Origin: the human T2T-CHM13v2.0 reference genome, Homo sapiens
Direction: 5' to 3' (one strand)
Assembly (NCBI RefSeq): GCF_009914755.1
Contig: NC_060925.1
DNA length: 64,000 nt
Shown here: positions 9,991 to 46,520 of the stretch, piece by piece
How the letters are laid out: every line of letters starts with the position of its first letter
How positions within the stretch are numbered: the first letter of the stretch is position 1
Notes under the pieces: model-generated
Databases searched by the model: none
Told to the model about the DNA's origin: nothing
What the model saw: only the letters and a program-made list of their open reading frames with translations
Made by a program: the position numbers and the translations under genes

Positions 9991-10344
9991 ACCAATACAC
10001 TCTAGCACATAATAGGTGTCCAAACAATGATTACTGAATTGACAATTTAACATAAACACATCAGAATTTCCTCTCGTTTGATCACTGAAAATGACAGGAA
10101 AGGAGTTTGCTTATACTCAACCCCTATTCCTGCTCAGAGAAATGTAAAAAAAATAATACTGACAACAACTGAAAAGGCTCTGTCCCTTCCTGGTTATATG
10201 ATCTGATGCATAACCTTTAACTGTAGAACCTCAATTTCTTCACCTGTAAAACTCACCTATCTCCCAGGGTTGCTCTGTGGCTTGACAAAATAATATCTGG
10301 TCTGGTGCTTTACCAACCCCATAGTACTATAAAATATAAGTGGT

Positions 10345-11350
10345 TTCTTCAATTTCTTTTATCACTGATTTATGGTTTTCATTGTAGAGATCTTCACCTT
10401 CTTCCTTTTTTTTTTTTTTTTTTTTGGTAGCTATTGTAAACGGGATTGTTTTCTTTGTTTCTTTTTCAGATAGTTCACTATTAGCATGTGAATTTGTCAT
10501 GCTGCTACGAAGAAATACCTGAGAGTGGGTAATTTAGGAAGAAAAGAGGTTTAATTGACTCAGTTCTGCATGGCTGAGAAGGCCTCAGGAAACTTACAAT
10601 CATGGTGAAAGAGGAAGCAAACACATCCTTCTCACGTGGCGGCAGGAGAGAGAAATGCCAAGCAAAAGGGGGAAATCCCCTTATAAAACCATCTCATGAG
10701 AACTCACTCACTATCATGAGAGTACTGCATGGGGGTAACCATCCCCATGATTCAATTACCTCCCACCAGATCCCTCCCCTAACACATGGGGATTACGGGA
10801 ACTACAATTCAAGATAAGATTTGGGTGGAGACACAGGCAAACCGTATTAGCACGGAAAAACACTATTGATTTTCATATGTTGATTTTGTATCCTGCAACT
10901 CTACTGAAATTGTTTATTAGCTCTAACAGTTTTTTGGTAGAGTCTTTAGGGTTTTCTATATATAAGATCATGTCATTTGCAAAGAGGGACAATTTAACTT
11001 CTTCCTTTTTACTTTGAATGCCTTTTCTTTCTTTCTCTTCACTAATTGCTCTGGCTGGGACTTCTAGCACTATGCTGAACAGAAGTGGTGAAAGTGGGCA
11101 TTCTTGTCTTGTTCCAAATCTTGGGGAAACAATTTCAACTTTTCCTCATTTATTATTATATTAGTTGTGGGTCCTTCTTATATGGCCTTTATTGTGTTGA
11201 GGTATATTTCTTCCATACCTAATTTGTTGAGAGCTTTTATTATAAAGAGATGTTACATTTTGTCAAATGCTTTTTGTGCATCTATTGAAATGATCATAAG
11301 GTTTTTGTCTTCATTCTGTTACAGTGGTGTATCACATTTATTGTTTTGTG
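10345..11350 (-). mobile_element. L1MA-family element, inverted 5' segment (ORF2 RT region), interrupted by THE1C
   Basis: ORF 10873-11070 encodes LEVPARAI...[22 protein letters not shown], the L1 ORF2 RT core with FADD decayed to FAND. Confidence 0.9.
10489..10849 (-). mobile_element. THE1C-like MaLR solo LTR nested in the L1
   Basis: THE1 hallmarks ggcctcaggaaacttacaatcatgg and ccccatgattcaattacctcccacc; 5-bp TSD GCATG (10484-10488) / GCACG (10850-10854). Confidence 0.9.
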
Positions 11351-13150
11351 TGATGAAAAGAATAAAGAATTGAAGACACAAATAAATGAAAAGACATCCC
11401 ATGTTTAAGGACTGGAAGAATAAATGTTGTTAAAATGACCATACTATCCAAAGCAGTCTACAGATTCAATGTAACCCTTACTGGAAACATTCTTCACAGA
11501 AATAGAAAAAAAAAATCTTAAAATTCTTATGGAACCACAAAAGAGCCCAAATAGCCAAAACAATCTTGAGTTAAAAGAACAAAACTGGAGGCATCACACT
11601 ACCTGACTTCAAAATATACTACAAAGCTACAGTAACCAAAACAGCATGGTACTGGCATAAAAACAGACACATAGACCAATAGAACAGAATAGAGAGCTCA
11701 GAAATAAATCCATGCATTTATAGCCAACTTCTTTTCAACAAAGAAGCCAAGAACACACAGTCTCTTCAATAAATGGTGTTGGGAAAACTGGATATCCTCA
11801 TGCAGAAAAATAAAATTTACTTCTCACCATATACAAAAATAAACAGATTAAGGATTTAAATATATTAATCAAAACTACAAAACTACTAGAAGAAAATATA
11901 TAAGAAAAGCTCCATGACACTGGATTCGGCAAGGACTTTTTGGATAAGATCTCAAGAGCATAGGTAACGAATAGACAAATGAGATTACATCAATCTAAAA
12001 AGCTGCTGCACAGCAAACAAACCAATCAACAGAGTGAAGAGACTACCCACAGAATGAGAGAACATATTTACAAACTATATATCTGATAAGAGGTTAATAT
12101 CCAAAATATATAGGGAACTCAAACAACTCAATAGCAAAAACAGAAAAACTGACTAACAAATTGTTAAAAGACTGAATAAACATCTCTCAAAAGAAGATAC
12201 ACAAATGGCTAACAGGTATATGAAAAAAATGCTCAATATCACTAATCATCAGTGAAATGCAAATCAAAACCACAATAAGATATCCCCCTACCCCAGTTAG
12301 AATGTCTGCTATCAAAAATAAAAATAAGAAGTATTGGCAAGGATATAGAGAAATGGCAACCCCTATACACAGGTGATGGAAATGTAGATTAGTACAGCCA
12401 TTGTGGAAAACAGTATGGGGGTTCCTTAAAAACTTAAAAATAGAACTACCATATGATCCAGCAATCTCACCACTGGAATTATATGCAAAGGAAATGAAAT
12501 CAGTATGTTGAAGAGATATCCACACACCCATGTTTATAGCAATACATTTATAATAGCCAAGATACGGAGACAACCTAAGTGTCCATCAAGGATAAATAAA
12601 TAAAGAAAATGTGGTATATACACAATGTAATACTATTCAGCCATAAAAAAGAATGAAATCCTGCCATTTGTGACAAGATGGATTGACCTGCAGGACATCA
12701 TGTTAAGTGAAATAAGCCAGGCACAGAAAGACAAATATTATATCCCCTCACTAACATGTGGAATCTAAAAGAGTTGATCTCATAGAAGTAGAGAGTAGAA
12801 TGGTGGCTACCAGAGGCTGGTGTGCTTGGGAGTGGGGGAAGGATGGGGCAATATTGGTCAAATTATACATAATCACAGTTAGATAGGAGGAACAAATGTT
12901 AAGAGATCCACTATACAGCAAGGTGACTATAGTTAATAACAATAAATTGTATTCTTGAAAAATGCAGAGTTGATATTATGCACTCTCACCAAGTATGCAA
13001 GGTAATGCATTTGTTCATTAGCTAGACTTAACAATTTCACAATGTGTATACACTTCATAACAACATGCAGTACGTGATTAAAATACGCAATGTTAGCTGT
13101 CAATTTTAAACTAATTAATTAATTAAAATTTGAAAAAAAAATTTAAACTC
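11351..13150 (+). mobile_element. L1MA5/6-like element, non-inverted 3' segment (ORF2 C-terminus, 3'UTR, A tail)
   Basis: Typical L1 ORF2 3' sequence (aaaacagcatggtactggcataaaaacagacacatagacc), L1MA-type 3'UTR and A-rich end; degenerate TSD aaaatataagtggt (10331-10344) / aaaagtactaggtggt (13153-13168). Confidence 0.9.
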
Positions 13151-14327
13151 CAAAAAGTACTAGGTGGTATTACAAACAGAAAAAACCCAGCCACTTGTCA
13201 AAAGGAGGGGTTAAAACAAACTGCCCATCAGACTACTTTATCTTCTTACATTTGTGCAAAATTAAAATGACTCTTTGCAGAATCCAATTTGGATAAGCCC
13301 ATGTCAATACTACTCATACAAGCCATCACTAATGACAAGATTGATAGCTCAGGAGGGCAAGTCATTTCATGTTCACTGTGCATCATGTTTAATTCGCCAA
13401 AAGGAGTTTGTGTGTATAATTAATGTGCTTTTCTTCCTGCCTTCATTTGGAAACATGTAAAGGGTCTCTAGGGAATTCTGTAAGTTAGAAACAATTAATA
13501 AAATAAAATCACTTAATTAAAGAGAATAATTGGAGTCTATTTTCTACCATAAAATAAAGGGATAAAAATCACTTTGGAAACACATTGTACAAAAATTGCT
13601 TGAGTTTTAAAAGAAAGAACAATATGCAGACAGAACACATGTAAGTCATGATAGTGGACAGATTTCCCAGGCCCTTTGTTCTGGAATGACTGAAATCCAA
13701 CTGACTTGACTTGTTTATGAAATACATGAGCACCGGCCCTTCAATAACAAGTCTCATTTTTTCTGGAGGAAAATTCTGTTTATCCATTATTTCAACGCAC
13801 ATTTACAATACTTTTTATATGTCGCCTATTATGTAAGGACCCATAGGTAAAAAGCAGCCCCTCCCGCAGCCTTCCAGAAATGTCCAGTCTAGTTAGGAGA
13901 GAGGCCCCCCTTTAACACACAATTAAAATGCAGAGAGATAAGCACTGTGAGGGAACAGAGGACACCACAGAACACTGAGAAACGGCATCCCTCCTAGCCT
14001 AAGAAAAACAAGTAAAGCTTTCAGACAAAAAAATAAAGAGCATTAGGTAGTATTGAAAGAAGAAACTGCAATTACAGATGTAATATCAAATACTGAGTCA
14101 CAAATACATGAATGTACTCGGTGTCTGGATGAATGACATAAAACTCAGCATGTCCCAAGAAGACAGTCTATGTTTTAGAGCAGAAAGAGATGAAGCTGAA
14201 AATGAGAAAGAGCATGGACGTGGAATCAGATAACTAGCTCAGATCACATAAATATGACCACATATGTATGTAACATCTCTACACTTCAGTTTCCTCATAT
14301 AAAAATGCAGTTCTAGGAGCAACCAGA

Positions 14328-14739
14328 TGGTAACATATTGCATTATGGTTCCCAATATCTGTGTCCTTCCAATAAAAGGATTGTTCATCTGCATCCTTTG
14401 CCATGTCACTGCCAATATCTAAGGTAGATGGAGAATATTCTGTGCTCCATTGTCGGGTTTGCCATGAGACTTTTTTTTTTCCTTTGGCCACTGGAATATG
14501 AGTAGACATAATGTACACAAAACTGAGCAGAAACTGTATACATATGTCATTCAGTTAAGACTTCTGTATTTCTGCCCTCTGACATGAGAATCACATAGCC
14601 CAGATGGGGCTGCTCCCAGAGCCTGGATTTCTGGCATGAGCAGACTTTTGGAAGAGAACTAAACAGAGCTGCATCCGACCTGCAGAATTATTGAAATTCT
14701 GGGATATCTGTTACTACCACAGCAAAAATCACCGATACA
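14328..14739 (+). mobile_element. MLT1I/J-like MaLR LTR
   Basis: ctttggccactggaatatgagtagac and terminal tgttactaccacagcaaaaatcaccgataca. Confidence 0.65.
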
Positions 14740-15039
14740 GAGATAAATGAATAGCTCATAGTCTAAGAGGAAGACAAACAGGTAATGATACAACAATCAG
14801 AAGAGTATCATTATAAATATATGTATAAGATAGTATTGAAGAATTAATAACATATCTAAAGACACTTGTCCCATCTTAGGCATTTAATCAATTTTGGATT
14901 CCTTCACCTTAGACCTTTGAGGAAGAGGTAAAAGTCTCAGAGTTAAACAATTATATAGAAGGACATGTCGAAGAATGAATATATTAATTTGTTCCATATG
15001 AGATACCTGCCATCAGATTTAACTGAATATACCCCAGAT

Positions 15040-15245
15040 TGGTTCTCATCCTTACCTTGGGCAAGTCCTTAACCTATGTGAACCTCAATTTTTCTCATCT
15101 GTAAATGAACAAAGAAACACTACCTACTTTGAACAGCAATTACAATAATTAGATTAAGCCATGTGGAGTCCTTAAAAGAGAGACTAACACACAACATGTG
15201 CTCAAAAAACGTAAATCATTGTTAGTATTTATTACTATTATTATT
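15040..15245 (+). mobile_element. MIR
   Basis: ccttgggcaagtccttaacctatgtgaacctcaatttttctcatctgtaaa. Confidence 0.72.
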
Positions 15246-15360
15246 CAATAATTCTAAACTTTCTGCAATTTACTTAGGAGCATTACTCCTATACCTTCTC
15301 AGTGGCACCAACTACAAAACACCAATTTCTTTCATGTTTAACTATAAACTGATTAACCAC

Positions 15361-15686
15361 TGATATGGTTGGAATGTTTTAAAGTTCATATATTGAATCC
15401 TAATTGCCAATGTGATGGTATTAGGGAGGTGGGGTCTTCTTGAGGTGATTAGGTCATGAGAGGTGAGCCCTAGTGAGTGGGATTAGTCCCCTTATAAAAG
15501 AGGCCTCAGAGAGCTGCCTTGCCCCTTCCACTGCAGAAGGACGCAACTTGAAGGCACTATCTTTAAACTACACAGCAGGCCTTCACCAGACACCTAATCT
15601 GTCAGCACCTGGATCCTGGACTTAAGTTGTTTATTAGCTACTCAGTTTATGGTATTTTGTCATAGCAGCCCCAATAGATTAAGACA
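15361..15686 (+). mobile_element. MLT1A/MLT1A0 MaLR LTR
   Basis: tgatatggttggaatg...gtgattaggtcatgag...ggtattttgtcatagcagccccaatagattaagaca; TSD accac/cccac. Confidence 0.85.
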
Positions 15687-17479
15687 CCCACCCAAAATAT
15701 ACACACACAAGCACACAAACACACACATGCATGCACTACACATACAACATCTTTTATTCTTTACTGTTAGCACTTCCGTCACTATCTTTGAATAAGTAAT
15801 AAGCAGAGTTGTTTTCAATTCTCTTGAAACCTTTCCATGAAAAGACAAAGAGATGAAATATTTGGACTAAATATAGTAAAACTCAAAAGATAGATTATTA
15901 CTACTTTTCATTTCTTAGGTGAATTCCTTACAATGAATTTGCCCTGTAATTTCACAACTCCAAAATATTTGGTCAGATCACTAAAAAGAAACCCATCAAA
16001 GCCTTGGAAAGTTTATTTCTTCATAGGCAAATGGATCTATTTCTTTGTTTTCAAATGGTTAGTTGTGTTGGTTTACTGCCTTAGTGACTTTAACACCTAA
16101 GTCGGTGGTTCTTAAACTTTTGGGGGTTACAGACCCCTTTCATAGGACAGAAACCACGGACACTCTCTACAGACAAGTGCATGGCAAGAATTTGGAATCC
16201 TAGCTACATTCTCCTCTGTGGTTCTAGAGCTGAGAGATGAGAGAGAGGCATGTGAGTGAGGGACACCCGTGACATAGAATCGTTCCCAACTGCAGAGCAC
16301 GGAGGCAGAGGCCGGAACAGATCTCTCCCAGAACACATTTCCAAATCCCATTAAATGGGGAGCAGGTGGGCCAACTGTGCCTCAATTCCCTACACTCAAT
16401 TTCCTCATTGTAAAATGGTGATAATAATAGTTCTCACCTCATAGTGTTTTTGTGAAAACTAAATGAGATGATATATGGAAGGCGCTTGGCACATTCTAAG
16501 TTCTTAATAAATATTAGGGACTCCTCTCATTGTAGGATACAGGAGACTGAGACCCAGAAAAGGGAATAATGTACCCAAGATTGTACAGTCACTGGAAGGC
16601 AGGGAGAAATGCTGAGACGCCTCATGAAGAGAGCATACAGGGAACCAAGGGCTAGAGTTAACAAACCAGGACATCTAGAAATAAGAAGTGCTAAAATCAG
16701 CTGATATTTGTTTGTGGCTCAGCTGTTCCACTGCACCAGCTGCTCAGAACTTTCAGACATGCCCCAGCACAGCACAGAATCACCCCATCCTATATTCATT
16801 CCATCAGCCTCAAATCTAATTTCAGTCCTAGAGAGTTTTTTTAAAGGGACCTAAAATTGAATATCCATTCCTATTTATAGTAAAGGGATATTTCCTAAGA
16901 AAGTGCCTTGTAAAGATTCAGATTTCTTTCCTCAGCAGTTTTCTCCGTTGGCCATTTTGGGTCTATTTTGATTTTTTCCCTGGTTGAAACATGTCTCAGA
17001 GGCTCTCACTGCTGAAGAGGTAGAAGTTTATCACAGGTTCATGGCCATGGGGTATGCCTAGGGCTGGCATTAATGGGACAGGGCCCAAGAGAAGCGAGCA
17101 CTGTCCCAACTTTGGGGATGGGGGCAAAAGGATCTCAACACCAAATGCAAGCATATTTCTAAGAGAGTATTAAAGAACCAGTCCAAATGAAAATTCCAAA
17201 ATTAGAAAATCAATAGCAAGAGAAGTCATTTAAAATTAAACAAAACACTGTCAGACATGTGGTCTAGTCACAGAGATGAGCCATACTGGAACAAGAGACC
17301 TGGGTTACTGGCCCCACATTACCATTTACTAGCCGTGACACCTCAGGAATCACCCTGCTCTGCACGCAGGCAGAGGAAAGATATCAGATTACATGATCTA
17401 TAAAGACCTTTTCACTTGGAAAGATAAACTGAAAACTATACTTAGCATATATTAACATATTCAGCTTATATATAATAAG

Positions 17480-18330
17480 GGATAGAAGAATATTTGTAGC
17501 AATATATTTCATAATAGCAAAAAAACTGGATATTAGCCAAACATCCTCTATTACTAGATTAGAAAATAAATATATACACTCTTAGAAGGGAATACTACTA
17601 ATAAACTGTATCGATATCAAGAAATCTTGAAAATACAATGATAATCAAAGTCACGAGAAGAAGTTACAATGTGATTCCACTTATATAAAGTTCAAAATCA
17701 GGCAAAATGAAAAGAAATAATAAATTGTTTAGGGATATATATATATGTATATATATATAGAGAGAGAGAGAAAGACCTTAAGGAAATAACACAAAATTCA
17801 GGTTAGAAGTTACCTGGGGAAGGGGTATCAGGATGCTATGAAGGAAAGGCCTTAGGTAGCTTCTAGAGTCTCATGACATTCTATTTCTTGGCTTGAGAAA
17901 TGGGCACTGGGATTTTTATTATTATTGTTCATAAATCATCCACATACGCTATCATAGACTTTATATATATATATAAAGAATATATACGTATGAATATATA
18001 CTTTGTATATATAGAATATATATAAGAATATATATTTTTTATTATGAAGTACAGAAAATATATATCTTCTTTATATATAAAGAATATATATAAATATATA
18101 AATATATATTTATGTTATATAAAAATATATAAACATATTTATATATTATATAAAGAATATATATAAATATATATTTATATATTATATAAAGAATACATAA
18201 ACATATATTTATGTATTATATAAAGAATACATATAAATATATATTTATATATTATATATAATATATTTATATGTATTACATATAAATATATATAAAGAAG
18301 AATATATATATTCTGTACTTCACAATAAAA
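17480..18330 (+). mobile_element. Old L1ME-type 3' fragment, interrupted by an AT-rich expansion
   Basis: gattccacttatataaagttcaaaatcaggcaaaa, cacaaaattcaggttagaagttacct and terminal ttcacaataaaa. Confidence 0.65.
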
Positions 18331-18349
18331 CTATATATTCTTACATATA
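17961..18349. repeat. AT-rich minisatellite with flanking 63-bp inverted repeats
   Basis: 34-36-bp units (tataaagaatatatataaatatatatttatatatta) between arms 18017-18079 and 18287-18349, which are about 90% reverse-complementary. Confidence 0.85.
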
Positions 18350-19494
18350 AAATAAAAAATGGGTTACACTGGGAAAATTAAAGAGTCTAAAGGGCCCTAA
18401 TATTTTAAAAGGAAGGACTGCTATATTCCAACCAAATACATAATACAACATTAAACCCCATAACAGTCTGAAGACACAGGTAATAATATCTTCAGTGTGC
18501 AGATGAGGTTCTGAGCAGTTCAGTGAAGTGGAGAGGCCATGATTCAAGTGAGGTCTCTCGGACCACAAAATCCGTGTACTATCCACTCTACCAGGCTTTT
18601 CATAGACAGGCAAGTTTAATTACTCTCCCCACACTACAAAGAGGGAAAAAGTCTCAGAAAGAGATTGTGTCTTGCTAGAGGTTGCACAGACATTTATACG
18701 GGCAGAAGTAGATGATCTGACCCTAACATCCTGACACCTTCTAGTGTGTCTTGCTAAATCCCGTATACTGTAAGCAATGAGAAACTGGTATTTCATGCTA
18801 GTTCTAAAAGAGAGGAAATATACTAAGCCTCTCCAATTTTCCCCTTTTCAGTCTGGTTTGTGTGAGGTTGAGGACTATATCTCCTGATATATACAATAGT
18901 AGAAAGATGAGCGGAAAGCTAGGACTATGCAAATTGGTGGTCGGAATACAATTTTCCTGTCCAAATGTGTCCTGCTCTTTGCAGGACCAGCTTTAGCCAA
19001 GGACAATATGTGCAAATATGTTCATGCCTTCCTCCTTCAAGACCAAAACAGCAAAATGGCATTACTCCATATCGTGATAGCTATGGATTTTCCCATTTAA
19101 ATAGTGCTATTGTCTTTCCTGTTTATGAGTCCGTTTTACTTATCAGGAAATTTTAACCTACACATAAGCTACAAATATGCTTCCTTCCATTTTTGTTCCT
19201 TATTCTTAATTATGTAGTAAAATGCAACCCACCTACGTGAACAAGATGAGTAAAAGAAAGTAATAGCTAGATGCATTTTTCATTTTCCACATAACAATTT
19301 GTAAGTTGAGAGTCAGTAAGTCCCCTGGAGCAAACCATGCAGTGCTTCCCCAAGAGATGGAAGGGTTGGTTGTTGACATCTGTCACTGAATGTCAGAGCT
19401 GAGAGGGACACTAGGATTCCATCCCATTTTCTAGCACAGTGTTTCACACATGGCAGTGGCTTACTAAATGTTTGAAAAGTAAATAATAACTTTT

Positions 19495-19750
19495 AATGGC
19501 TAATACATATGTTAAAAGCTTATCATATACCAGATACTATTCTAAGAATTATACCTACAAAACTTAACTCATTTAATTTTTACAATAATCTCAAAAGATT
19601 GGTACTGTTATTATTCTGACCTTAAAGATAATGAAACTGAGGCTCAAAATGATTTAGCAACTTGCCTAATGTCACACAGCCAGCAAAGGACAGCTGGAAT
19701 CCATGCTACTGGCTGCAGAGTTTATGTTTTTAACCTCCATGCTGTTCTGA
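19495..19750 (-). mobile_element. MIR adjacent to the SCA37 AluJb
   Basis: aactcatttaat...gaaactgaggctcaaaatgatttagcaacttgcctaatgtcacacagc. Confidence 0.75.
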
Positions 19751-19816
19751 ATATCTCTTAGCAAAGCTGGAAAGAATGAAGCCCAGGAATGTAAACTGAC
19801 TATATAAATCACACAA

Positions 19817-20143
19817 GGCCAGGCACAGTGGCTCACACCTATAATCCCGACACTTTGGGAGGCAGAGGCAGGTGGACCACTTTAGCCCAGAAGTTCGAGA
19901 CCAGCCTGGGCAACACAGTGAGACCCTGTCTCCACAAAATAAAATAAAATAAAATAAAATAAAATAAAATAAATAAATTAGCCAGGCATGGTGCCATACA
20001 TCTGTAATCCTAGTTACCTGGGAGGCTGACTTGGGAGGACCACTTCAGCCAGGGAGGCTGAGGCTGCAGTAAGCTGTGATGGCACTACTGCACTTCAGCC
20101 TGGGTAAAAGAGCATGACCCTGTCTCAAAAAAAACAAAAAAAA
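19817..20143 (+). mobile_element. AluJb (host of the SCA37 repeat)
   Basis: Dimeric Alu with J diagnostics (gcccagaagttcgagaccagcctgggcaaca, gaggctgcagt, gaccctgtctc), an A tail and a TSD core tcacacaa on both sides. Confidence 0.95.
19936..19978 (+). repeat. DAB1: SCA37 pentanucleotide repeat: (AAAAT)7 + (AAAT)2, i.e. (ATTTT)7 in DAB1 sense; pure allele, no ATTTC/GAAAT
   Basis: Read directly: ...gtctccac (aaaat)7 aaat aaat tagccagg..., occupying the middle A-rich linker of an AluJb. Confidence 0.9.
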
Positions 20144-20599
20144 GTCACACAAAATGGTACTCTGAAAAAAGTAAGAGTTCGGAAGTCAGAAAGAAAGTTT
20201 CTAATCAGAGCTAGGTGCCTTTTTTGTCTGGGGACCTGAGCAACACACATTTCCAGAGACCTACTAGGTGTTGGAAACCAGTGACTCAAACACTGTAGTT
20301 TTGAGTTTCCATCTCCTCCTCTGTAAAATGAAGGCAGTAACATCTACCTCATCAGCTTGCAGTAAGAATCAATCAGCAAAGGGCAAATGCTCCCAAAATG
20401 GCAGCTATCGAAAGAAACCATGTAAGTTCAAGTCTAACCATCATACCAATGGCAGTGGCGACCTATCTGGAGCAGCTGTTGCCATCACGCTAGCTGCAGC
20501 AGTGTGGCTGCAGCAGGGAGGCAATGCCCAGGGTTCCACACTCCGTGGAGCTGGCAGGAGCTGGGGACAAGTGGGAGCACTGTCCCTTCTGAGTTGGTG

Positions 20600-20825
20600 G
20601 GGCAGGAACTCCCCACATGCAGCTGCAGCCACCCAAGTCATGGCTGCAGACCCAGGCCTCCTGTTCCATAGAGCAAGCAGGAACCCAGCCTTCCCAGGCA
20701 CAGCTGCAGCCTCCCAAACTATGACTGCAGACCTGGGCCTCCCACTCCTCAGAGCAGGCAGAAGCACCTCCCTCCTGGGTGCAGCTGCAGCCGCCCAAAC
20801 CACAGCTGTGGACCCAGGCATCCCT
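20600..20825 (+). repeat. 81-bp tandem repeat (about 3 copies) inside MER52A
   Basis: cagctgcagcc recurs at 20620, 20701 and 20782 (period 81). Confidence 0.85.
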
Positions 20826-21075
20826 GCCCTCTTGGAGGCCCAGGAAGGCTTGGAAATACCTGCTCCCACGGCCTGGCTTCTTCCTGCTATTGGCACCTGC
20901 TCCCATCTTGAAGCAAAGTGGGGTGAGCCTGGGCACTGTCACAGCCCAGCCAGGTGTGCACACACTCAGGGCACTGTTGACATGTCAGGCCCCTGACACC
21001 TCAGCCCCCTTCTGGACTTTGAGCACTGATGAGGATAAGAGGGAAGCCGAAATGGGGCTGAGAGCAGCTCAGTGC

Positions 21076-21325
21076 TGGCCTGCAGGGGGCCCCTTGGCAC
21101 CTACAGCCTGGGTGCCATGAACAGCAGCAGGAGGGAGACAGGTTCCTGGGCAAAAGGGGGCAGGTCCCTGGTGAGGCCCCACCTTCAGGCCAGGGAGGGG
21201 CTGAAGGATGGGGGCGGGGCTGCCAGTCCCACGAACCAGAGTGGGAACTTGTAGTGCCTCTTCTGGGCCCACCCATGGCCAACCATGGACCAATTGGCAC
21301 CCACTTCTCTCTGAGGCCCATAAAA
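21076..21325 (+). promoter_or_regulatory. LTR U3 motifs: CTCF-like site, GC box, CCAAT box, TATA-like box
   Basis: TGGCCTGCAGGGGGCCC at 21076-21092; GGGGCGGGGC at 21211-21220; CCAAT at 21290-21294; CATAAAA near 21319-21325. Motif matches only; activity unknown. Confidence 0.4.
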
Positions 21326-24300
21326 GCCCCAAGCTCAGCCAGAGCTGAGCAGACTTCTGGATGACCAGCTGCAGAGAGGAGCTACCCTCTCCAGGTCCTC
21401 CTCTCTGCGGAGTGCTCCAGAGATGATGGGACGACCTGCCTGCAGAGAGAAGGGCCTCCTCTCTGGTGAGAGCTGAACACTTGATGGGATGATCTTCCTC
21501 CAGAGAGGAGCTACCCACTGCAGGTCTCCTCTGAGCTGTTCTAACACTCAATAAAGCTCCTCTTCATCTTGCTCACCCTCCACTTGTCTGTATACCTCAT
21601 TCTTCCTAGACACAGGACAAGAACTCAGGCAAAGGTGCCACTGGCCAACAAAGGTTTCCAGACAGAAAGGCGACACCTCAAAGATCCCATAAAAATACCA
21701 TACTCCTGCCCTCCCACTGAATATGGGTAAACTTACCAAAGAGGTAATTTCACTTCCAACCTCCCAGACCTATCAAAACACATATACTAGAAACACTAAG
21801 AAAAAGGTCATAAATCAAGGTGGGATTCAAAAGATGTAGCTCAGGATTCTAGATAGGTAAGCATGACATTTGCTCCATTGTGGTGCCAGAAAATGCATAA
21901 AAGAATGCAAATCAAGGAGACAGGCAATAGTGCTTCATGGTTACAGCTTGAATGGTGGAGCTAGACTGATTCAGGGTTGCATCCTGCCTCCTCCACTTGC
22001 TAAGCAGCAAGGCAGGCAATCTCTCCAGGCCTAGGTCTTCATTTCTGCTATGGATGCTGTGAGGATTCATCACAGTGGCTAGGACATAGCAAGAGTTTAA
22101 TCAATGAGAGTAAAAACCCAATAAACCATATAATGGGGAAGGACAGGAAGGAGATCCAACACTCCCTCAGGGGTTGATGCCCACGTAGTATCAAGATATA
22201 CATTCAAGGGATTATCTAAAAAGTGGAAATTTAAAAGTCAGAAAAACATTTTCCCTATAGGCCCAAGTGTTTTATATTCTTAATGAACATTTTCCTTTTT
22301 CAAATTTTGCCTTTCCACCATGAATATAAAAATGGCAGGTAAGAAATATGAGTGATACACACATATATATCCATGCATTGGCCTACAAAGTGGTTATAGA
22401 GGACGTTTTATGATGCAGAAAAAACAACTAACATTCTTGTAATGTCTATTTTCCTATAATTATATCAGCTCATTGAATCTTCAACAGTCTTGTACTCTCA
22501 GAGGTGGCACAACTTCTGAGCTTGGACTCTGGATTCAGGCTTGAGATGAAATCAAGGCTCTGCTAGGCACCTGCTAGGAAACCTCCTCCTCTAAAATGTG
22601 AAGGTCATGTTAATATCCAAGTAATTAACTCAAGGCCAGAGACCTAGTGCTCAAGAAAGGGTATATATGAGTACAATGAAAGTTAAGTGTTATAACGATC
22701 ATCCTGATCTTAATCCATGAGGATAAGAGTATTGAGTGACTGAACCAAGATCATCCAGCTACGAAGTCACGTTGTTGGGTCTTAAATCAAGGCCTGTGCT
22801 CTGCCCTGGCATCATGCTAACTCTCTTCTTCCCAGTTCAGTATTTCTTCTCAGCCCTTGTCTTGAACAGCATTCTTCCTGCAATGACCATCACATTCCCC
22901 GGTATCACCTGTAACAGGAACCTTCACTGACAGTCCCCACCCACAGCCCAACCACACCACCTTATTTCTAATGCTGTACTCTACAGGCATTGTCTGCTTG
23001 TTTCTCAGTCTCCTCACTAAAAGGTGAGCTCCTGAGGGCAGCGGCCATGTATGCTGACTGCTGTCTTTTAACTCAACACAGAACAGCAGCTCAGGAAATA
23101 TTTGCTAATGAATGATTGCAATAAAAGGGTGCAAAATAAGATAATAAGAAAGTTGCATGCCTTAGTGAAAAGATAACTGAATAGAGAAGAGACCTGGATT
23201 CAAGTTGCAGCTTTGCCAGTCACCGACTTTTTAAAAATTTCAACAGCACAGTTCTAATTCTCCAGACCACTGTTTACTCATAAAGTGAAATAAAAGAGTT
23301 GCACTTAACTATCTCTAGTTATCCAATTTAGGTCCAATGTTTTAGCAGTGTAGGAAAACCATCATCTATATGTGCATGTGAATCTGATATCTACTTTTAT
23401 TGGGGTGAGGGAGAGAAAGAGAGAAAGAAAGGGAAAATGAGAAACAGATTTAAAAGACAAACAGAGAAAAAAAAAAAACGTGTAACCCTGGAGTGATTTC
23501 ATCTCCCAATAACTTATAGTTTCCTCGCATATAAATGGAGAAGGTTAAACTAGGGCAAATTTAGCATAGTTTTTTATTTTTAACTGAAGTGCCTTTTAAT
23601 TCCACTTTCTTCCTAAGCCTTGAGTCCTGACCTAGAAATCCACTGTACCTTGTAAATATTTTTTATGGTCGTTTTAAAATTAACACAATTGTAGTGGTCA
23701 AAGCCTGGAAAATAAATTTAAATCTAAAGTTTAAAAAGTGATTTCAAATACTTTTCAATAACATTAAACTTCTGTGCTGCTTCAGCATAAATCTTGGGAA
23801 TGGCTGCTGTCCCCTGACTTTTTTTATAACTTTAAACTCAGGCCTTCAAAATAGAGCCATCACCCTAATTTTGGTCATAGCTCTGGCAGGGCAGCAAGGA
23901 GAGATCTGGGAATAAGTAGCGGCTATATGCACAGCTGTGGTGACCTGGAAATTTAAAACAAAACGATCCATTTCCTGCTGAACCATAACATTCTCCTTCT
24001 CACTAGTGTGGATTCAGAAAGACCAGACGGGGGACCTGGACAACCGAGGCATGGAGACTGAATTTCAAACGAGGCAAAGTAAATAGACCTTGCAGGGTGG
24101 CCACCGTCGAGTATCCCACATCCAACTCACTGACTGTTGAAATCGCCACAAAAACACATGTCTGATGGCATATGGCCATGGGTGTTCTGTTAATTTATCA
24201 TTTCAATGTACTTTTTATGTGCCAGGTAGCCGTTCAGCCAATACCAATTCAATGTCTGATCTGTGCACATTACTATTCAGACACTGGGATATAAAAGAGT

Positions 24301-24632
24301 AATATTTAGTAAGTTTTTAATGGAACTATGTGAATACATACAACTCATATTTATATATACATTTATGGAAGCGTCTAATGACAGGTGATTTATTTCTCTT
24401 ATTCACCCACTCAATATTTACTGGGGCTCTATGACTTGCCTGGCAGTACTAGGCCATGGGGAAACAAAACTCACAGCCCTGCTCTCAGGACTCACTCTAC
24501 AGGGGAAGTCAATATAGGAACAAGTATTTGTAGTGCTCAGGTTTGCATCTACATCTTGTTTTAAACTCTCAGAGATTCACTTCATTTTGTATGTAGAACA
24601 TTGAAGATCTTTGTTTGGCCACCACTTTAAGG

Positions 24633-24829
24633 CAGTGATTCTCAACCAGGGGCTACTTTACACCCCAGGGGACAATGTTTTGAGACATTTTTGATTGTCA
24701 CTTGTGATGTGGGGAGGTGCTACTGAAATCTACTGGGTAGAGGCCAGGGATGCTACTAAACATCCTACAATGCATAGCAAAGAACTATCTGGCACAAAAT
24801 GTCAATACTACTGAAACGGAGAAATCCTG
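24633..24829 (+). mobile_element. MER20 (hAT-Charlie MITE)
   Basis: cagtgattctcaaccagggg...gggtagaggccagggatgctactaaacatcctacaatgca...gagaaatcctg. Confidence 0.88.
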
Positions 24830-25725
24830 CTTAAGGTATGTTTGACTATTTTTAAAGCATCAGGTCAAACTTTAAAACTCAAGAATATTTACAGAATTAG
24901 AAAATTTAGCAGAGAGGCCTGTGGTTCCTTTTTCTAAGAAAAAGTCTACAGAATCGAAGACAAATTATTCAATTGGATTTGCACGGAAATAATAAACATT
25001 CGCAGGAATGCATTAATGTCTCCCTTACCCAAGAGCAAACTCATAGACATTTACAAATTATGACAATTTCTCTATAGACACCATAAACTGGTGTGTTTAA
25101 TACCTCCTGATTCACAAGGGAGAGAATGGTGCCCAAGTCTGCCTTTGGATTTCCACCTTGTGGGGCCCGCTATTTAAGACCTTACATCTTCCAGTTACAA
25201 GAAGAACTTATCTCCAGAAAGACACATGGGACCTGAGGCCTAATTCAAGATTTCAGGAAAGCTGTAACTCAGGCATCAGACAATCAATATTCCAATTTGG
25301 AATTTAGCACTTTGGAGCCTGCATGTTCAGAAACACACATAAAGGATCTGCTTATGATTGAGGCCCAACTCATATTTATAATATAATCACCTAATAAAAA
25401 CGGTAATGACCTCTGGCTGACTTTACACAGCATGTTTTGGCACACAAGCTCCATAAAAGGATTTTCACAGACCTTGCCTTCAAGAAAATACATCTAAGCT
25501 CCTGTTTTTTTTTCTATCGAGGCTGAAGAGCTTTTTAAAAATGCCATTTTGCTTTCAGAGTGCCTACATACACAATATGTACAGTAGATTATCTTATAAT
25601 AGTATGATATTTTCCTCAAGAACTCTTTCTGTTTATACACATGGCCTTTAAGATGAATATATGATACACTTCTCGGAGTATCCACTTTACAAGCAAAAAA
25701 TGACTTCTCTCTCCTTCCATGTCTA

Positions 25726-26060
<335 letters not shown>

Positions 26061-27539
26061 AAGAAAGAAATGAAGATGTCAGTTCATTGGAATCCTTAGG
26101 TGCTGGTTTGTTGGATCCATCCCTCTATCTCTTCTGACTGGTTCTGTGACCTCTTAATGATGCTCAGTGGTGGTTAAATTTTAACAACACATAACGGGGC
26201 TGATAGGCCAAGTGTTCAGTTAACAGCAAATAAAGTTCTCTAGAAGAAAGAAAAATGTGTGTGCACGTGTGTGTGTATGCCTATTGTGTTTAACAGAAGG
26301 AGTGCTTGTACAGCCCCCTACCTGCCCCCTCAAAGGCACCATTGGAAAGCATTTGTATTTAATGGGAAATAAAAGAGAATCATGCATTGCAGTCACAAGT
26401 GCAAAACAGGGAGGAGTGGTATAAAGAGATCTCATCTCTATAAGTTTATCTGCCTCCCAAATTGCCCATGCTCTACTTTTATTATCTGTGATCTGTTGTT
26501 CCTGTATCTGAAAATTACTTCCTGAATCTATTAGGAAAAGTGGATGAAAAGAAATCAGCAGTCGCAAATTCTGGTCCAAGCAGAATAAATCAGGGAGGGT
26601 GGCTCTCGCGCCACGGGTATAGGCATGAACATATTTCAAGAACATAATCGCCGGGTTCTTATAAAATTTGAGTTCATCTTTTCCCGTTGCAAATTATATA
26701 TCTGTGGCAACCTTCTGAAACACATATCAGAAGATACTTAAAGGGTTATTAAAGAATTGGATACAATTTTTCCAGCCTTATTTCAGACTCCTCCAGGAAG
26801 CATATCCCAAAGGGGATAAAGAAGTATGCACATTTTTTTTGAGCCCAGAAAAATTGTTTATTACAATTTTATGCAACCTTTCTATGGTAAATCCATGGGG
26901 ACAGGTCCCTTTGCTGGAATTTGAATCTGCTGACACAGGCATGCTAAGTTTACCTGTGACAAATTAAAATAAACAAACAAACCAAAAAATGCTTTATGTT
27001 TTAACAGTAAACCTTTGTTGCATAAATGAAAAAATTGACTATTTTATTACCAGTGATGAGGCTAAATATTTTGGCAGTAAGGTAAACAAAAGAATAAACA
27101 AAACATCTTAAGAATAGATAAGCATTTTTGTCAGAAGGTATTATGATATAGATCATCCAACAGAATAAAATTTTGTAATTTCAATGCCTTATTTACTCAT
27201 AAATCAAGAACATGTAAACTTTTATTAATTTCTTTTAAACTTTTATATTAAGAAATGTATTATTTTGTTTGGAAAGCAAGCTTTTTATGGAAGTGAATCA
27301 TTTTTCAAATTAATACCATTCTATTAATATTTGACATAAAAAGACACTTATTCCAGAGTAAATCCCTTTTCCAATTATGCTCAATAAATTTATGGTTGTA
27401 TTATTTGGAGATAAAAATTAAGTGTTTAAGCTTCAAAGAGTCTTGATCTTTCCAAGAGACCTAGACAATTCTTTCTTCATCTCCTGCCCTTCCTGGTCTC
27501 TTCAGCCTCTGCCCATGAACAGGACAGCTTGGCTCTGCA

Positions 27540-27690
27540 TGGGTAGCTCTAAACCCCTGGCTGCACACTACAATCATTTAGAAATCTTTTATAAAATACC
27601 TGGGTAGCACCTCTAGGGACAAAGGTGTAATTGGTCTGAAAATGGCCTGTGCGTCAGTATTTTCTAGAAAATATTTCACATGAAGCCAGT
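27540..27690. mobile_element. MER5A-like fragment
   Basis: ctggctgcacactacaatcatttag...taattggtctg. Confidence 0.5.
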
Positions 27691-29299
27691 AGTAGGGGCT
27701 CTGTTTGGTCCGGGAGTGTAGCTAAAGCCCACCCTTTTGAGCAGGAAGGCTGAAAGTCCCTACCTAAATTTTCATAAGGTGCAGCAGCCCATTTTGTAAT
27801 GGCTGGTCCTGCTATGACCTGCCATTCTGTCCCAGGATACAGGCTTCTGCCCAGTTCCAGAACCACAAATCATAACAATAGAACATTCATTTAGTGCTTG
27901 TTCTGCCACTCTGATTTCCAGGTCCCAACCCTTCTCTCTGTCCCTGGCTGTGCAACTGATGGAGACAAAGGAACTCCCATCACCCTAGGATTGAGCTTCA
28001 CCCCACAGAAGCCCTCCACAGGAGCAGGTGGCTGTCTCCTCTCCCACTCATTTCCTCCCCCACAGCTAAGCACACTCATTGAAAATGAGTTCTTAGTATT
28101 AAGCTAAGTGCTCGATCTCCAGGATCTCATTGAACCCTCACAACAATCCCAAGTCAGAGAACATTATTAGATCACTTAAGCAGGGGCAGAAGCTGAGGTG
28201 AACTCACTTGCTCAGGTAATAGAGCTAGGAAGTAGCAGAGATAGATCTTGATTCCAACCCTGGTGACAAAGGCCATGCTTATTAACCTCCACAACAGCCA
28301 AGAGTTATATGATGCTTGCTATGTCCCAGGCAAGCTCTAAGGAAGCTCTTTTACGTAGATTAAAGTAAATATCAGAAAAGGAGCCTGGGACACAGAAATA
28401 TATGCAGTAGGCCCAACATCACAGGGCTACTAAACATAAGGGCCAGCATTTGAATCCAGACAGTCTTGTCATAGAGCCCAAACTCTGAACCACTTGACCC
28501 CACTCTCTTAACCACCACACTGGAGCCTAGGTAACGCTGACTGCCATGACCCTGCCCTAACTCTGGGCACACAGCACAGTAGCCTCATGCATGTGTGTCT
28601 GTGTGTGTCTATTTGGATGTAAGAGCAAGTATTTTCATTTCTGTCTCCTTAGAATCTAATACAGTGCCTGGCAAACAGTAGGTATTTAATAAAGAGCTGT
28701 TTGACTGTTTATGCATTCCTTCATTCAACGAATATTTTGTGTATTGCCTTCCATGAGCTTCCAGGGATAGAAAGATGAATCGAGCGTGGTTCCTGTCTTA
28801 AGGAAGTTTCATATAACTGCAGAGACACGGACACAGACAATTGTCATATTTCATGACGCATGCACTCCCAGAGGTATGAACAGATGCTGGGATGTGCTGC
28901 AAGAGATTCCATGGTAACACAAAATGCCTAAAGTTCCTTTCCATTATGGCTTGCTCCACTGTCTTGTCTTCCACACACCCAAGCAATCTGGTACTTTCCC
29001 TTACATTTTTCCCAAAATCAACTGCTCTGCCAGACTTACTCCAAAACACTGCATTTTTGAGACATGCAGCCTCTAGTTAAACCCTTTCCACTCCCAGTCC
29101 CTGGTTTCTCTAGTCTGTCTGTGTAAATTTGCGCTGATCATCAATGGGCAAGGATCCAGGCCATCCCATCTAGACTTAGCCTTGCACACTGCTGGGAACT
29201 GTCACAGTTAAGCTGGTGCTGCCTAGCAGAAGAATTCCTACAATCCTCATGTAAGTAAAAACTCTGTCTTTTGTTTCTGACCATACTATTTACCACTAG

Positions 29300-29580
29300 G
29301 AGATTAATAAAGTGAGAATTTAAGCTTCACGATGCAGGAATATCTGACTGTTTTATTCACTTTTGTATCTCTAGTGCCTAGAACAATCCCTGGCAAATAT
29401 CGGGTGCAAAATAAATACCTGTTGAGTGAATAAACAAATACCTCTTGCTTACATGTTTGTTTCCAGCTACCTGTGAACATCTTAGGGACAGGGATGACTT
29501 TGTATGTCCAGAACTTAGAAAAGTGCCTGTCACACAGTAGATGCTTAATAAATGTTTCATGAGTGACTGGATGAATGAAC
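29300..29580 (+). mobile_element. Two tandem L2 3' ends
   Basis: Two copies of the gtgcctggcacatagtaggtgctcaataaat-type terminus. Confidence 0.7.
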
Positions 29581-29837
29581 AGATGGATAAAGAGACAGAA
29601 AACTGTTCAAAGATAAAAGGACTCATCAAAATGTACAGCCTACTGAAAAACTGCCATCTTCAACTAGTTTTATTAATGGAAAAGATACAGCATTATCTTG
29701 CTTAATGGTTCTTTTCAACAAAATTTCCCTTGTTAAACACACACACATATATGTACAGAGAACTCAATGTTAAGTCCACTTGAAAGATATGAATCTGATG
29801 ACAGAATCTGGCAGAAAAATTTAAAAGGCCGGCCACT

Positions 29838-30372
<535 letters not shown>

Positions 30373-30547
30373 GCATATGTATATAGTCTTCAGCTCCTGC
30401 TACTGTGGCCAAGGGTATATTTGAAAGTCAAACAGAACTACAAATTAGGCAATGCAGAGGACTTTTTCCAGTTAAGTCCTCCCTCTTACTACCTGAAAGG
30501 CTCAAAATGTAAGGCATTATAATTACTACATGTCACCTAAGAAACTT

Positions 30548-31034
30548 CTATCAGGGCCCCAGCAAGACACAGATGGCATCCTCCAGCTGAGTAACCTTAG
30601 GTTTCATAAAGGGACCGTCTGCAAAGGCGTGGGCAGAGTTATGGGGAAGCTGCAGGGGATGGTGTAGTATTGCAGGGCTAGTAACCCTGGGGGAGCTGTT
30701 ACCACTCCAAGGCCTGAGGGACAGGAGGAAGGAGCAGTTATAGAATCTAAAAATAGAGGCTGGGTGGAAAGGGTCCTTCTACAGGACTGTGACCTCTGGT
30801 GGAGGAAGATGGCTAGACTTCAGCAATCCTGAAATGTGGGAGATGGGAAATAAACTTCACTCATCAGCTTCACTCATGCCCTACCAGAGGCCTCCTGCAA
30901 ATGTTCCCCTGCTGGCCAAATGAACCAGAGGCCAGAGGGCAGGGATGCTAATGGAATCATATGGGTCAGTTTCTCAGAGCTCAGAGCAGGATGGAGGCAG
31001 GGTCTGGAGGGACAAACAAAAGACGTCCAGCTCA
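30548..31034 (-). mobile_element. LTR33-group ERVL LTR
   Basis: cagggccccagcaagacacagatggca...gctgttaccactccaaggcctga...ggtctggagggacaaac...ccagctca. Confidence 0.7.
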
Positions 31035-33391
31035 AACCTCCAACTCTCTCAAGAGAACTCAGTACCGGCACTCTATTTTTGACTCCTTTGCCAAAGGGGC
31101 ACTGTCTCCAACAATTGGGATGGCCATTATATTATCACCCACATTCCCAAGGCTAGTTTAGCATTAAAAACAAAAGCTAGTAATATTCTGCCCCTGTCTA
31201 AAGATGAGAGCCAGGCAATCATCAAATAAATAAAAGAGGTTTTAGGGTTGACGAGCTAGTTTTAAATCCTGAGGAACTCCTCAAATTTGAATCTTTTTCT
31301 TAATTACGAAAAGCTATAAATAAAGCCACCCATTCTGCCCACCTTGATATGTCTTCCATAATCATCACATGAGGTATTGGGTATTAGGTGTCTCTGTGAA
31401 ATTACCAAGCTGTATAAGATATTAAGTTATAATTCCCTCCAGGAAGTACAGTACAGATGTGCAAATCTGTGTATTAGAAGGATGGAGCAACCAATTTTGT
31501 TTTCACACTTGGATGATCCGTGCCCAAATCAAAGACAAACCACAACATATGCCTTTGTGTGAGTTTTCTTATTTTTAGCAATGCATTAGGGAGAAGAAGG
31601 AGTCACTAGAATGTACAAAATTTGGCAGTGCAGCACAGAATGCCTCAGCGACTTGGAGGGGGGTTAAGAACATATGTTTAACCATCTTTTTCATGGACCC
31701 AAAAGGAGAATATTGAGGATGTCACTGCTTACTAAAAAAACTGTTGCTACTCCAAACATTTCCTACCTTTGATTAGCTTCTCTTCTAAAGTAAATTAATT
31801 GTAGTGGAGTGAAAAGAGCACTGGAGCAAATGTCAAAAGACCTAGCTTCTAGATGCTACCTCTGTCTCTGTTAGTTCTTGGGGACTAGAACTAACTTGAA
31901 GTCTTTAACTGTGCTGTGGGTAAACCTAGGGTGGTTCTTTACAGTTATCTCAAGGTCTATCATAAGAGTTCCTAAAGATTAGAAAGAAGCGGGTAGTAAG
32001 GAGGGGCTACCAGCTAAGAAACCCCCTCCCCCACCATCTTTTCCTATTTCGTACATTGAAGTTATGTGTGAGATCACATAGGTCTCCACTGCTTAAAAAA
32101 CAAAAACAAACAAACAAATACATTCTTAGATAGATGATCTGTAAGATATCTTAAAATGTAACATAAGAGAGTTTAATAAACTTAGTTCCATCCCACTTCA
32201 TTTGGAACTGTGAAGCCATAAGTATTTGCCCAAGTCCACCTTTCAGTAGACTAAAGCATGAACCACCATATCTAAGGAAGTTACAAAGTAAGAATCAACG
32301 ACCCAGAGTGAAATTAATACTACAGCTCACAGGCAGGTTTGCTATGAACATTTGTTAGAATAAAGGTAAACTGGGTAAATTTTCCCCATCAGGTGTGGTT
32401 TAGCTGCCAGACCAACAGTTTGATCATTGCAGGTTAACAACTGCCTAAGGTTGGAACCTGCCAGCCAGGTCCCAACATTCAACCAAGTGAGTGCCCCAGG
32501 GTAACAAACAATGCTGTTTGCTTGTTCACCAGCTGTAACAACTTTCTCCCAAATCAGGCAAACAAGGGCAGATTCAGTATTACACACTGGATACGGTGTG
32601 AACTCCAAGCCACCTATAGACTATGATTTACCTCTCTCAGCATTTTGCAAAGATGTAGTAGAAAGATATCCAACCTTCATGAAGAAAAAGATCAAGGGCT
32701 TGCGTTCAAAATCTGCTACTCATTAACACCACGACTTTGGGTAAGTTATTTCACCATTCTGATGCCAGTTTTTCCATTTGCCAAACGGAAGTGGTGATAT
32801 TAGCTCATATGTGAATCCACGTGAAGCTCTTAGAAAAGTGTGTGGCACATAGTAAACACTCAATTAATAATAGTTGTTGTTTCTATTATTTTGTCAATAA
32901 CTTAGTAAATGCCAAGCACTCTGCAAAGTTTTAACAGTCACCAAATATTTATTGAGCACCTACTTGGTGTCAGGCGCATTCATTATTTCCTTTAATCCCA
33001 CAACAACCCTCTGAAGTAGGTCATATTATTTTCATTCTATAGAAATGAAAATAGAGACATAGAGAAATTACTAACAAAAAAACTGAAGAGTGAAGCCATC
33101 TGATCTAAACTAGGCTCTCTATTTCCTGGAGGCTCCCATAAAACTGATATGGTGTTGTTACGTAAATAAAGCGTAGCCTAGAACAGGTTCTTATAAATAG
33201 TGGCTACCATTATTAACTTAATCTCTTCTGTTACCACACTCCTTAGAACCGTCTTACCCAAATATTGGTCAATCAGATACTACTTTGTACTTTTTACCAT
33301 AGCTAACATCTTTACCTTTACCTATTGAAGGGTTTTCCTTAAAGTGGCCAGCAGTTTGGATAATTCAGCTTAGGACGAAGCCTGGAACATA

Positions 33392-46257: not shown

Positions 46258-46520
46258 GGCCGGGTGCAGTGACTCATGCCTGTAATCGTAGCACTTTGGG
46301 AGATGGAGACAGGTGACTGCTTGAGCCCCGGAGTTCGAGACCAGCCTGGGCAACATGGTGAGGCTCCATCTCTACAAAAAAAAAATATAAAAATTAGCTG
46401 GGCATGGTGGCATGCACCTGTAGTCCCAGTTTGAGCCCAGGGAAGTAGAGGCAGCAGTGAGCCATGATCGTATTACAGCCTGGGTGATACAGTGAGACCC
46501 CTTCTCAAAAAATGAAAATC
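46258..46520 (+). mobile_element. AluJb with internal right-arm deletion
   Basis: J diagnostics; about 30 bp missing after tgtagtcccag; TSD aaagaaata(a/g)atc(a/t)gg. Confidence 0.9.

What the first reader, a model, noticed from the sequence alone, without database searches (positions are those of the whole stretch)
19936..19978. SCA37 (DAB1) pentanucleotide locus, present as a minimal pure (ATTTT)7 allele
Seen: (AAAAT)7(AAAT)2 in the middle linker of an AluJb, with no GAAAT unit. Established: SCA37 is caused by an (ATTTC)n insertion within a long ATTTT tract at this AluJb in the DAB1 5'-UTR intron. Inference: one T>C change per unit turns the AUUUU RNA into tandem UCAU (YCAY), the NOVA binding motif, and NOVA2 regulates Dab1 splicing. 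Seven units is shorter than the GRCh38 allele as I recall it (about 15), so this may be T2T-CHM13 or another haplotype. Medically the most important feature here, but known rather than novel.
Basis: partly seen in the sequence, partly recalled or inferred. Interest (0 to 1): 0.8.

Follow-up and report, generated by a model that had tools for sequence, protein, structure and literature searches.

The report
Normal short allele of SCA37 repeat
This is the well-known DAB1 repeat whose ATTTC-containing expansion causes spinocerebellar ataxia type 37, present here as the shortest reported harmless allele of seven ATTTT units, so it is correctly identified but ordinary.

Summary
Window 19936-19978 reads (AAAAT)7(AAAT)2 with no GAAAT unit. 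It lies in the A-rich linker between the two 7SL-like monomers of a + strand Alu, 19817-20143, antisense to DAB1.

It is the SCA37 locus. Nine published primers for this region map once each, in the right order and orientation, 7 of 9 exactly and 2 of 9 with one mismatch. The right flank is unique in the window's genome, and the left flank has a single full-length match. Counting from the published hg38 fragment start puts the repeat at hg38 chr1:57,367,044, the catalogued start.

The allele is normal. Seven units is the lower end of the published 7-400 range, and it carries the wild-type ATTTATTT flank. Published hg38 lengths imply 15 units in GRCh38, 8 more than here.

A 2026 paper adds enhancer hyperactivation. 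The AluJb subfamily was not tested here.

Verdict: already known, low interest.

The parts
19936..19970 (-). (AAAAT)7 on the + strand, which is (ATTTT)7 in the DAB1 sense. This is the polymorphic SCA37 pentanucleotide repeat, pure, with no ATTTC/GAAAT unit.
19971..19978 (-). (AAAT)2 on the + strand, which is ATTTATTT directly 5' of the repeat in the DAB1 sense. The literature describes this as the flank of wild-type alleles; SCA37 alleles have ATTTTTTT instead.
   Evidence: for the sequence; for the published wild-type versus SCA37 flank
19817..19935 (+). Left monomer of the Alu (7SL-like).
   Evidence: Metazoa_SRP match at 19818-19934, 47.6 bits
19979..20125 (+). Right monomer of the Alu (7SL-like).
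   Evidence: Metazoa_SRP match at 19981-20128, 34.2 bits
20126..20143 (+). 3' A-rich tail of the Alu (A8CA8).
19809..19816 (+). TCACACAA, the left copy of an 8-base direct repeat flanking the Alu. It looks like a target-site duplication.
20145..20152 (+). TCACACAA, the right copy of the same direct repeat.
19632..20388 (.). The published Alu24R/Alu24F amplicon across the repeat ('Frag2'), 757 bp in this allele.
   Evidence: both primers match exactly and once
19442..21340 (.). [quoted passage not shown] It is 1899 bp here against 1939 bp for the hg38 interval given in the paper.

Best explanation
This is the SCA37 repeat of DAB1, at T2T-CHM13 chr1:57,245,936-57,245,978, carrying a normal allele. 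An old Alu inserted antisense into a DAB1 5'-UTR intron. Its A-rich middle linker turned into an (AAAAT)n microsatellite by slippage (inferred). DAB1 is on the - strand, so long DAB1 pre-mRNAs carry the tract as (AUUUU)7. In this allele the tract has no YCAY motif, is far too short to be unstable in the way described for large alleles, and keeps the wild-type ATTTATTT flank. It is therefore expected to be benign. According to the literature, disease needs two further events: lengthening of the ATTTT tract, then T>C changes in the last T of units, followed by expansion of the resulting (ATTTC)n. The published consequences are two. First, AUUUC RNA forms nuclear aggregates that bind RNA-binding proteins, including NOVA2, through one UCAU per unit. 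Second, the surrounding roughly 2 kb enhancer (DRL) becomes hyperactive and DAB1 is overexpressed. What was shown here is the sequence, the Alu anatomy, the locus identity and the allele length. The pathogenic mechanism is taken from papers. The origin of the repeat by slippage from the linker is inference.
For: Sequence and repeat.

Alu dimer on the + strand with the tract between the monomers. A-tail and 8-base flanking direct repeat.

Locus identity: the nine primers of Table S2 of PMC13125401 each map once at two mismatches or fewer within 19442-21340, in the expected order and orientation. Of these, 7 of 9 are exact and 2 of 9 have one mismatch. The right flank is unique in the 3.1 Gb genome, and the left flank has one full-length match. 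The window is G000:C1:57226001-57290000.

Coordinate arithmetic: the hg38 interval that the paper gives for the DRL region starts at 57,366,550. Adding 19936-19442 gives 57,367,044, the catalogued start of the SCA37 repeat.

Allele: the published normal range is (ATTTT)7-400, and 94% of normal alleles have 30 units or fewer. Wild-type alleles are preceded by ATTTATTT. An (ATTTT)7 allele has been cloned and used as a control.

Length in hg38: the published interval is 1939 bp against 1899 bp here, and the catalogued tract is 82 bp against 42 bp by the same kind of call. Both differ by 40 bp, or 8 units.

Mechanism papers: RNA aggregates and the T>C route; NOVA2/YCAY; enhancer hyperactivation.
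Against: The subfamily label AluJb was not tested here, because no repeat library was available. Only 2 CpG remain in 326 bases, which fits an old Alu but does not name the subfamily.

The 15-unit figure for GRCh38 is inferred from published coordinates and not read from GRCh38 sequence. It assumes the published interval corresponds to the primer ends and that there is no other indel inside the interval.

Two of nine primers differ from the window by one base each, at 19891 and 20188. These may be variants of this haplotype or features of the primers.

The original report (Seixas 2017, PMC5501871) is not held. Its content is cited only through later papers.

Benignity of this allele follows from the published range. 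It is not a test made here.
Confidence: 0.97

Rival explanations
1. It is one of the many ordinary Alu-borne AAAAT microsatellites and only resembles the SCA37 site.
For: Pure (AAAAT)7 is common. There are 3028 forward and 2923 reverse match positions in the window's genome. Alus are everywhere, and two more lie within 10 kb of this one.
Against: Published locus-specific primers flank it in the right order. The right flank 20150-20440 is unique genome-wide. The offset from the published hg38 fragment start gives the catalogued repeat start to the base. The hub's table puts the window inside DAB1.
Confidence: 0.01
2. The seven-unit length is an assembly collapse of a longer allele and not a true haplotype.
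For: Tandem repeats can collapse in assemblies, and the GRCh38 allele is inferred to be 8 units longer.
Against: The tract is 43 bases with unique sequence within a few hundred bases on both sides, far inside a single long read. Seven-unit alleles are documented in people and have been cloned. Wild-type alleles of 8 to 17 units were Sanger-sequenced and nanopore-sequenced in one cohort. No reads were available here to test this directly.
Confidence: 0.02

Closest known systems
SCA37 locus, DAB1 (ATTTT)n/(ATTTC)n repeat (hg19 chr1:57,832,716; hg38 chr1:57,367,044-57,367,125)
   Same: It has the same flanks, the same Alu, the same strand relation to DAB1, the same repeat unit and the same wild-type ATTTATTT flank.
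   Different: There is no difference in kind. This is the normal allele at the lower end of the published range, with 7 units against an inferred 15 in GRCh38. Pathogenic alleles are (ATTTT)60-79(ATTTC)31-75(ATTTT)58-90 or larger.
FAME ATTTC insertions (SAMD12, STARD7, MARCH6 and others)
   Same: They have the same ATTTT reference motif of Alu origin, the same pathogenic ATTTC unit and the same proposed T>C route.
   Different: [quoted passage not shown] This one lies in the middle linker of an AluJ element, according to the review's figure legend. The genes and the disease also differ.
Canonical Alu middle linker
   Same: The position between the left and right monomers is the same. The neighbouring Alu at 29823-30150 still shows an A-rich linker with isolated T and C at that place (families D3 and D6).
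   Different: Here the linker has become a pure 5-base tandem array of seven units followed by two 4-base units.

Membership tests
SCA37 (DAB1) repeat locus | Locus-specific flanking sequence | tested here: met
   All nine published primers map once in order, 7 of 9 exactly and 2 of 9 with one mismatch. The right flank is unique in the genome, and the left flank has one full-length match.
SCA37 (DAB1) repeat locus | Lies in an intron of DAB1 upstream of the coding exons, with the repeat reading ATTTT in the gene's sense | tested here: met
   The hub's gene table shows DAB1 on the - strand with no exon in the window. The window is C1:57226001-57290000. The tract reads AAAAT on +.
SCA37 (DAB1) repeat locus | Position equals the catalogued coordinate | tested here: met
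   57,366,550 + (19936-19442) = 57,367,044. This is arithmetic on published coordinates and not an alignment to GRCh38.
Pathogenic SCA37 allele | An (ATTTC)n insertion of 31 units or more within long ATTTT tracts | tested here: not met
   There are 0 GAAAT units and seven AAAAT units. It is a normal allele.
Pathogenic SCA37 allele | An ATTTTTTT flank 5' of the repeat on the founder haplotype | tested here: not met
   The window has ATTTATTT, the wild-type form.
Alu element | Two 7SL-derived monomers, an A-rich linker, an A-tail and flanking direct repeats | tested here: met
   One search shows two Metazoa_SRP matches on the + strand. Searches show the A-tail at 20126-20143 and TCACACAA at 19809-19816 and 20145-20152.
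AluJb subfamily | Subfamily diagnostic positions | not testable with these tools
   No Dfam or RepeatMasker library is held. Age is only hinted at: 2 CpG remain in 326 bases, and the left arm is 76% and 68% identical to the two neighbouring Alus.
NOVA (YCAY cluster) target | Clustered YCAY motifs in the transcribed strand | tested here: not met
   There are 0 YCAY motifs in the tract of this allele. The cluster exists only in the ATTTC-bearing allele, for which NOVA2 binding is reported in the preprint.

The most novel reading that the evidence does not exclude
The published 'Alu STR enhancer' (DRL, 19442-21340) may be a patchwork of mobile elements, and the Alu may not be its active part. A MIR-like stretch lies in Frag1, the Alu lies in Frag2, and a copy of a dispersed repeat family of about 1.2 kb fills most of Frag3 (20449-21629). 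That copy lies on the + strand and has an LTR-like layout: it begins with TG and carries a GC box, a CCAAT box, a TATA-like box and then AATAAA. If it is an LTR promoter and enhancer pointing antisense to DAB1, it would explain why the published promoter-less reporters fire only in the DAB1-antisense orientation and why the activity maps to Frag3 and not to the Alu. The SCA37 insertion would then act by altering the surroundings of an LTR-derived element about 470 bp away. The paper's main text does not use the word LTR.
Probability: 0.35. Interest if true: 0.3.

Novelty: already known. Interest (0 to 1): 0.12.

Why it matters
The locus matters medically, because an ATTTC insertion here causes a dominant ataxia. 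This check has three practical uses. It gives window and CHM13 coordinates for the repeat, the diagnostic amplicon and the published enhancer fragments. It shows that T2T-CHM13 carries 7 units where GRCh38 is inferred to carry 15, so repeat callers moved between the two references must allow a 40 bp offset. It also shows that CHM13 differs by one base from two published primers.

Tried and rejected
- The original SCA37 paper, PMC5501871, is not held (after a mistyped term). Its facts are cited through later papers.
- A search for papers giving the CHM13 allele or coordinate listed 7 papers. I looked at passages of two of them and at the STRchive supplements. None gave a CHM13 allele. STRchive only notes that the UCSC TRF call runs about one motif past the gnomAD definition.
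- A search for four coordinate strings found 3 papers. Only PMC8145836 was useful.
- I tried to classify the Frag3 repeat family as retroviral. Two same-strand copies on C12 lie 4.6 kb apart. All 11 minus-strand stop-to-stop frames of 70 aa or more lying between them (11 of the 56 frames that one search listed for the whole locus on both strands) were scanned against Pfam, and 0 of 11 hit any family. The LTR reading therefore rests on layout and on copy ends only.
- No second copy of that family lies within 12000-32000 of the window.
- I considered the TATA-like box at 21320-21326 as the cause of the antisense reporter activity. The Frag3 primer ends at 21321 and cuts that box, yet Frag3-AS is active, so the box cannot be the sole cause.
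- The control column is uninformative, because the reversed pattern is the same repeat in another register.

Full report
**What is in the sequence**

Window 19936-19970 is seven perfect AAAAT units. It is followed by AAATAAAT (19971-19978), one T, and then sequence typical of an Alu right arm. Tandem Repeats Finder calls 19936-19977 with period 5, 8.6 copies and score 77. This is the only AAAAT array among the 42 rows it lists for the whole window at score 40 or more. The exact 35-mer occurs once in the window, and in 0 of 100 shuffles. A script found no GAAAT unit in the tract and no YCAY motif on its reverse (DAB1-sense) strand.

**The host element**

The Rfam 7SL model matches 19818-19934 (47.6 bits) and 19981-20128 (34.2 bits). 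Both matches are on the + strand and below the gathering score, as partial 7SL derivatives should be. The tract therefore fills the linker between the two monomers of an Alu.

- An A8CA8 tail ends the element at 20143.
- The 8-mer TCACACAA stands directly before it (19809-19816) and after it (20145-20152), like a target-site duplication.
- Only 2 CpG remain in 326 bases.
- The left arm is 76% and 68% identical to the two nearest Alus. The element is old.
- The subfamily label AluJb comes from the papers. I had no repeat library to test it.
- DAB1 is on the - strand (hub table), so the Alu is antisense and the gene's transcript reads ATTTT.

**Is it the SCA37 site?**

Pure (AAAAT)7 is common in this genome, with 3028 forward and 2923 reverse match positions when overlapping registers are counted. 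Identity must therefore come from the flanks, and three lines agree.

- *Primers.* Table S2 of Loureiro et al., Cell Rep 2026 (PMC13125401; supplement rows seen) lists nine primers for the 'DAB1 repeat locus'. A script mapped all nine. The positions are Alu-CTCF-F 19442-19463, Frag1-F 19445-19464, Alu24R 19632-19652, Frag1-R1 19880-19899 (one mismatch), Frag2-F 20166-20189 (one mismatch), Alu24F 20369-20388, CpG-Alu24F 20574-20591, Frag2-R 21302-21321 and Alu-CTCF-R 21321-21340. Forward and reverse primers lie on the expected strands. At two mismatches or fewer, the only extra hit was Frag1-R1 at 46320-46339, in another Alu.
- *Uniqueness.* The window's own genome is held (3.117 Gb, 24 contigs; window = C1:57226001-57290000). 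The right flank 20150-20440 has one full-length match, at itself, plus one 64-base match at 80%. The left flank 19442-19810 has one full-length match. It also gives 39 short weak matches (44-209 bases, 68-89%) to its middle part.
- *Coordinates.* The paper gives hg38 chr1:57,366,550-57,368,488 for the DRL region it analysed. Taking Alu-CTCF-F as the start, 57,366,550 + (19936-19442) = 57,367,044. That is the start listed for SCA37 in a published table of repeat loci (PMC8145836). The hg19 position 57,832,716 is quoted in PMC10900262.

In CHM13 the tract is chr1:57,245,936-57,245,978.

**Which allele?**

Papers give the normal range as (ATTTT)7-400, with 94% of normal alleles at 30 units or fewer. 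Pathogenic alleles are (ATTTT)60-79(ATTTC)31-75(ATTTT)58-90 or larger. Seven units is the lowest value reported, and a seven-unit allele has been cloned as a control.

Corral-Juan et al. 2024 (PMC11043136; passages seen) report that wild-type tracts are preceded by ATTTATTT and SCA37 tracts by ATTTTTTT. The window has ATTTATTT.

For GRCh38, the published interval is 1939 bp against 1899 bp between the same primers here. The catalogued tract is 82 bp against 42 bp from the same kind of call. Both differences are 40 bp, so GRCh38 is inferred to have 15 units. This rests on published numbers and not on GRCh38 sequence.

**How it works**

In this allele the tract should be inert. It is short and pure, has no YCAY, and lies within Frag2. 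With 14 units, Frag2 had neither enhancer nor silencer activity in the published assays. Raising the normal repeat in the whole fragment to 126 units did not change its reporter output.

The route to disease in the literature is lengthening of ATTTT, then T>C in the last T of units. Two consequences are reported.

- AUUUC RNA forms nuclear aggregates. According to a 2025 preprint (10.1101/2025.09.03.673996; abstract and passages seen), this RNA pulls down NOVA1/2, PTBP1/3, Matrin-3 and others more strongly than AUUUU RNA does. NOVA2 colocalises with the aggregates.
- The DRL with the pathogenic insertion drives stronger and broader brain reporter expression, and DAB1 is upregulated in patient-derived neurons.

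**Side observations on the enhancer**

The segment 20600-21620 is not unique. Of 1858 first-look candidates, 40 were scored. Apart from the self-match, the long matches (over 650 bases) were 73-81% identical.

Against seven fetched copies, the window's copy spans 20449-21629. All 7 of 7 match at 74-77% identity. The match starts at 20449 in 3 of 7 and ends at 21625-21629 in 7 of 7.

- Upstream flanks differ between copies, so 20449/20450 is a true element end, beginning (A)TG.
- Downstream of 21629 the three full-length copies whose ends I printed (L003, L004, L005) resemble each other but not the window.
- In 4 of 7 loci, 21617/21622-21686/21698 matches about 440-490 bp further along. The window's copy therefore has an internal deletion there.
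- On the + strand the copy has three 81-base tandem units (20620-20824), a GC box (21213-21221), CCAAT (21290-21294), ATAAAAG (21320-21326), a 58-base duplication (21393-21507) and AATAAA (21551-21556). This is an LTR-like layout pointing antisense to DAB1.

It coincides with the published finding that only the antisense orientation, and only Frag3, drives promoter-less reporters broadly.

Two points count against over-reading this. The Frag3 primer cuts the TATA-like box, yet Frag3-AS is active. Also, the 11 minus-strand open frames between two same-strand copies on C12 hit no Pfam family.

The word LTR does not occur in the main text of the Cell Rep paper. A RepeatMasker track would settle the family at once.

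**Verdict**

The finding is a correct identification of a known disease locus carrying a normal allele. The novelty class is 'already known'. Interest is low by the two lenses asked for, because no specialist would be surprised and no open question becomes newly testable.

Noticed in passing
window 20449-21629 (+): This is a copy of a dispersed repeat family of about 1.2 kb, 74-77% identical to seven other copies. It has an LTR-like layout: three 81-base tandem units, a GC box, CCAAT, ATAAAAG at 21320-21326 and AATAAA at 21551-21556. It fills most of 'Frag3', the active part of the published DRL enhancer, and points antisense to DAB1. There is an internal deletion after 21629 relative to other copies. 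The family could not be named, and no retroviral domain was found between two copies on C12 (0 of 11 frames).
   Followed up: partly
window 19530-19735: The middle of the left flank ('Frag1', including primer Alu24R) gives 39 short weak matches across the genome (68-89% identity over 44-209 bases). By recall it looks like a MIR element. The published DRL would then be MIR + Alu + unique DNA + LTR-like repeat.
   Followed up: partly
window 19891 and 20188: The window differs by one base from two published primers. Frag1-R1 implies G where the window has A, and Frag2-F has T where the window has A, next to the primer's 3' end. These are either variants of the CHM13 haplotype or features of the primers. 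The second could weaken PCR on this haplotype.
   Followed up: no
window 17956-18357: This is a long, imperfect AT-rich array (TA dinucleotide runs with 36- and 70-base higher-order periods, about 400 bases), 1.6 kb from the SCA37 Alu. It lies inside the 22 kb region that the 2024 nanopore study enriched.
   Followed up: no
window 10221-10854: The RefSeq 'enhancer' feature in the hub's table lies 9 kb from the repeat. It is not the DRL enhancer of the 2026 paper (19442-21340), which has no row in that table.
   Followed up: no
window 25729-26066 and 29823-30150: Two further + strand Alus lie here. The one at 29823-30150 keeps an A-rich middle linker with isolated T and C and carries an (AAAAG)6 array in its tail (30121-30150). 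It is a useful within-window comparison for how the SCA37 linker changed.
   Followed up: no
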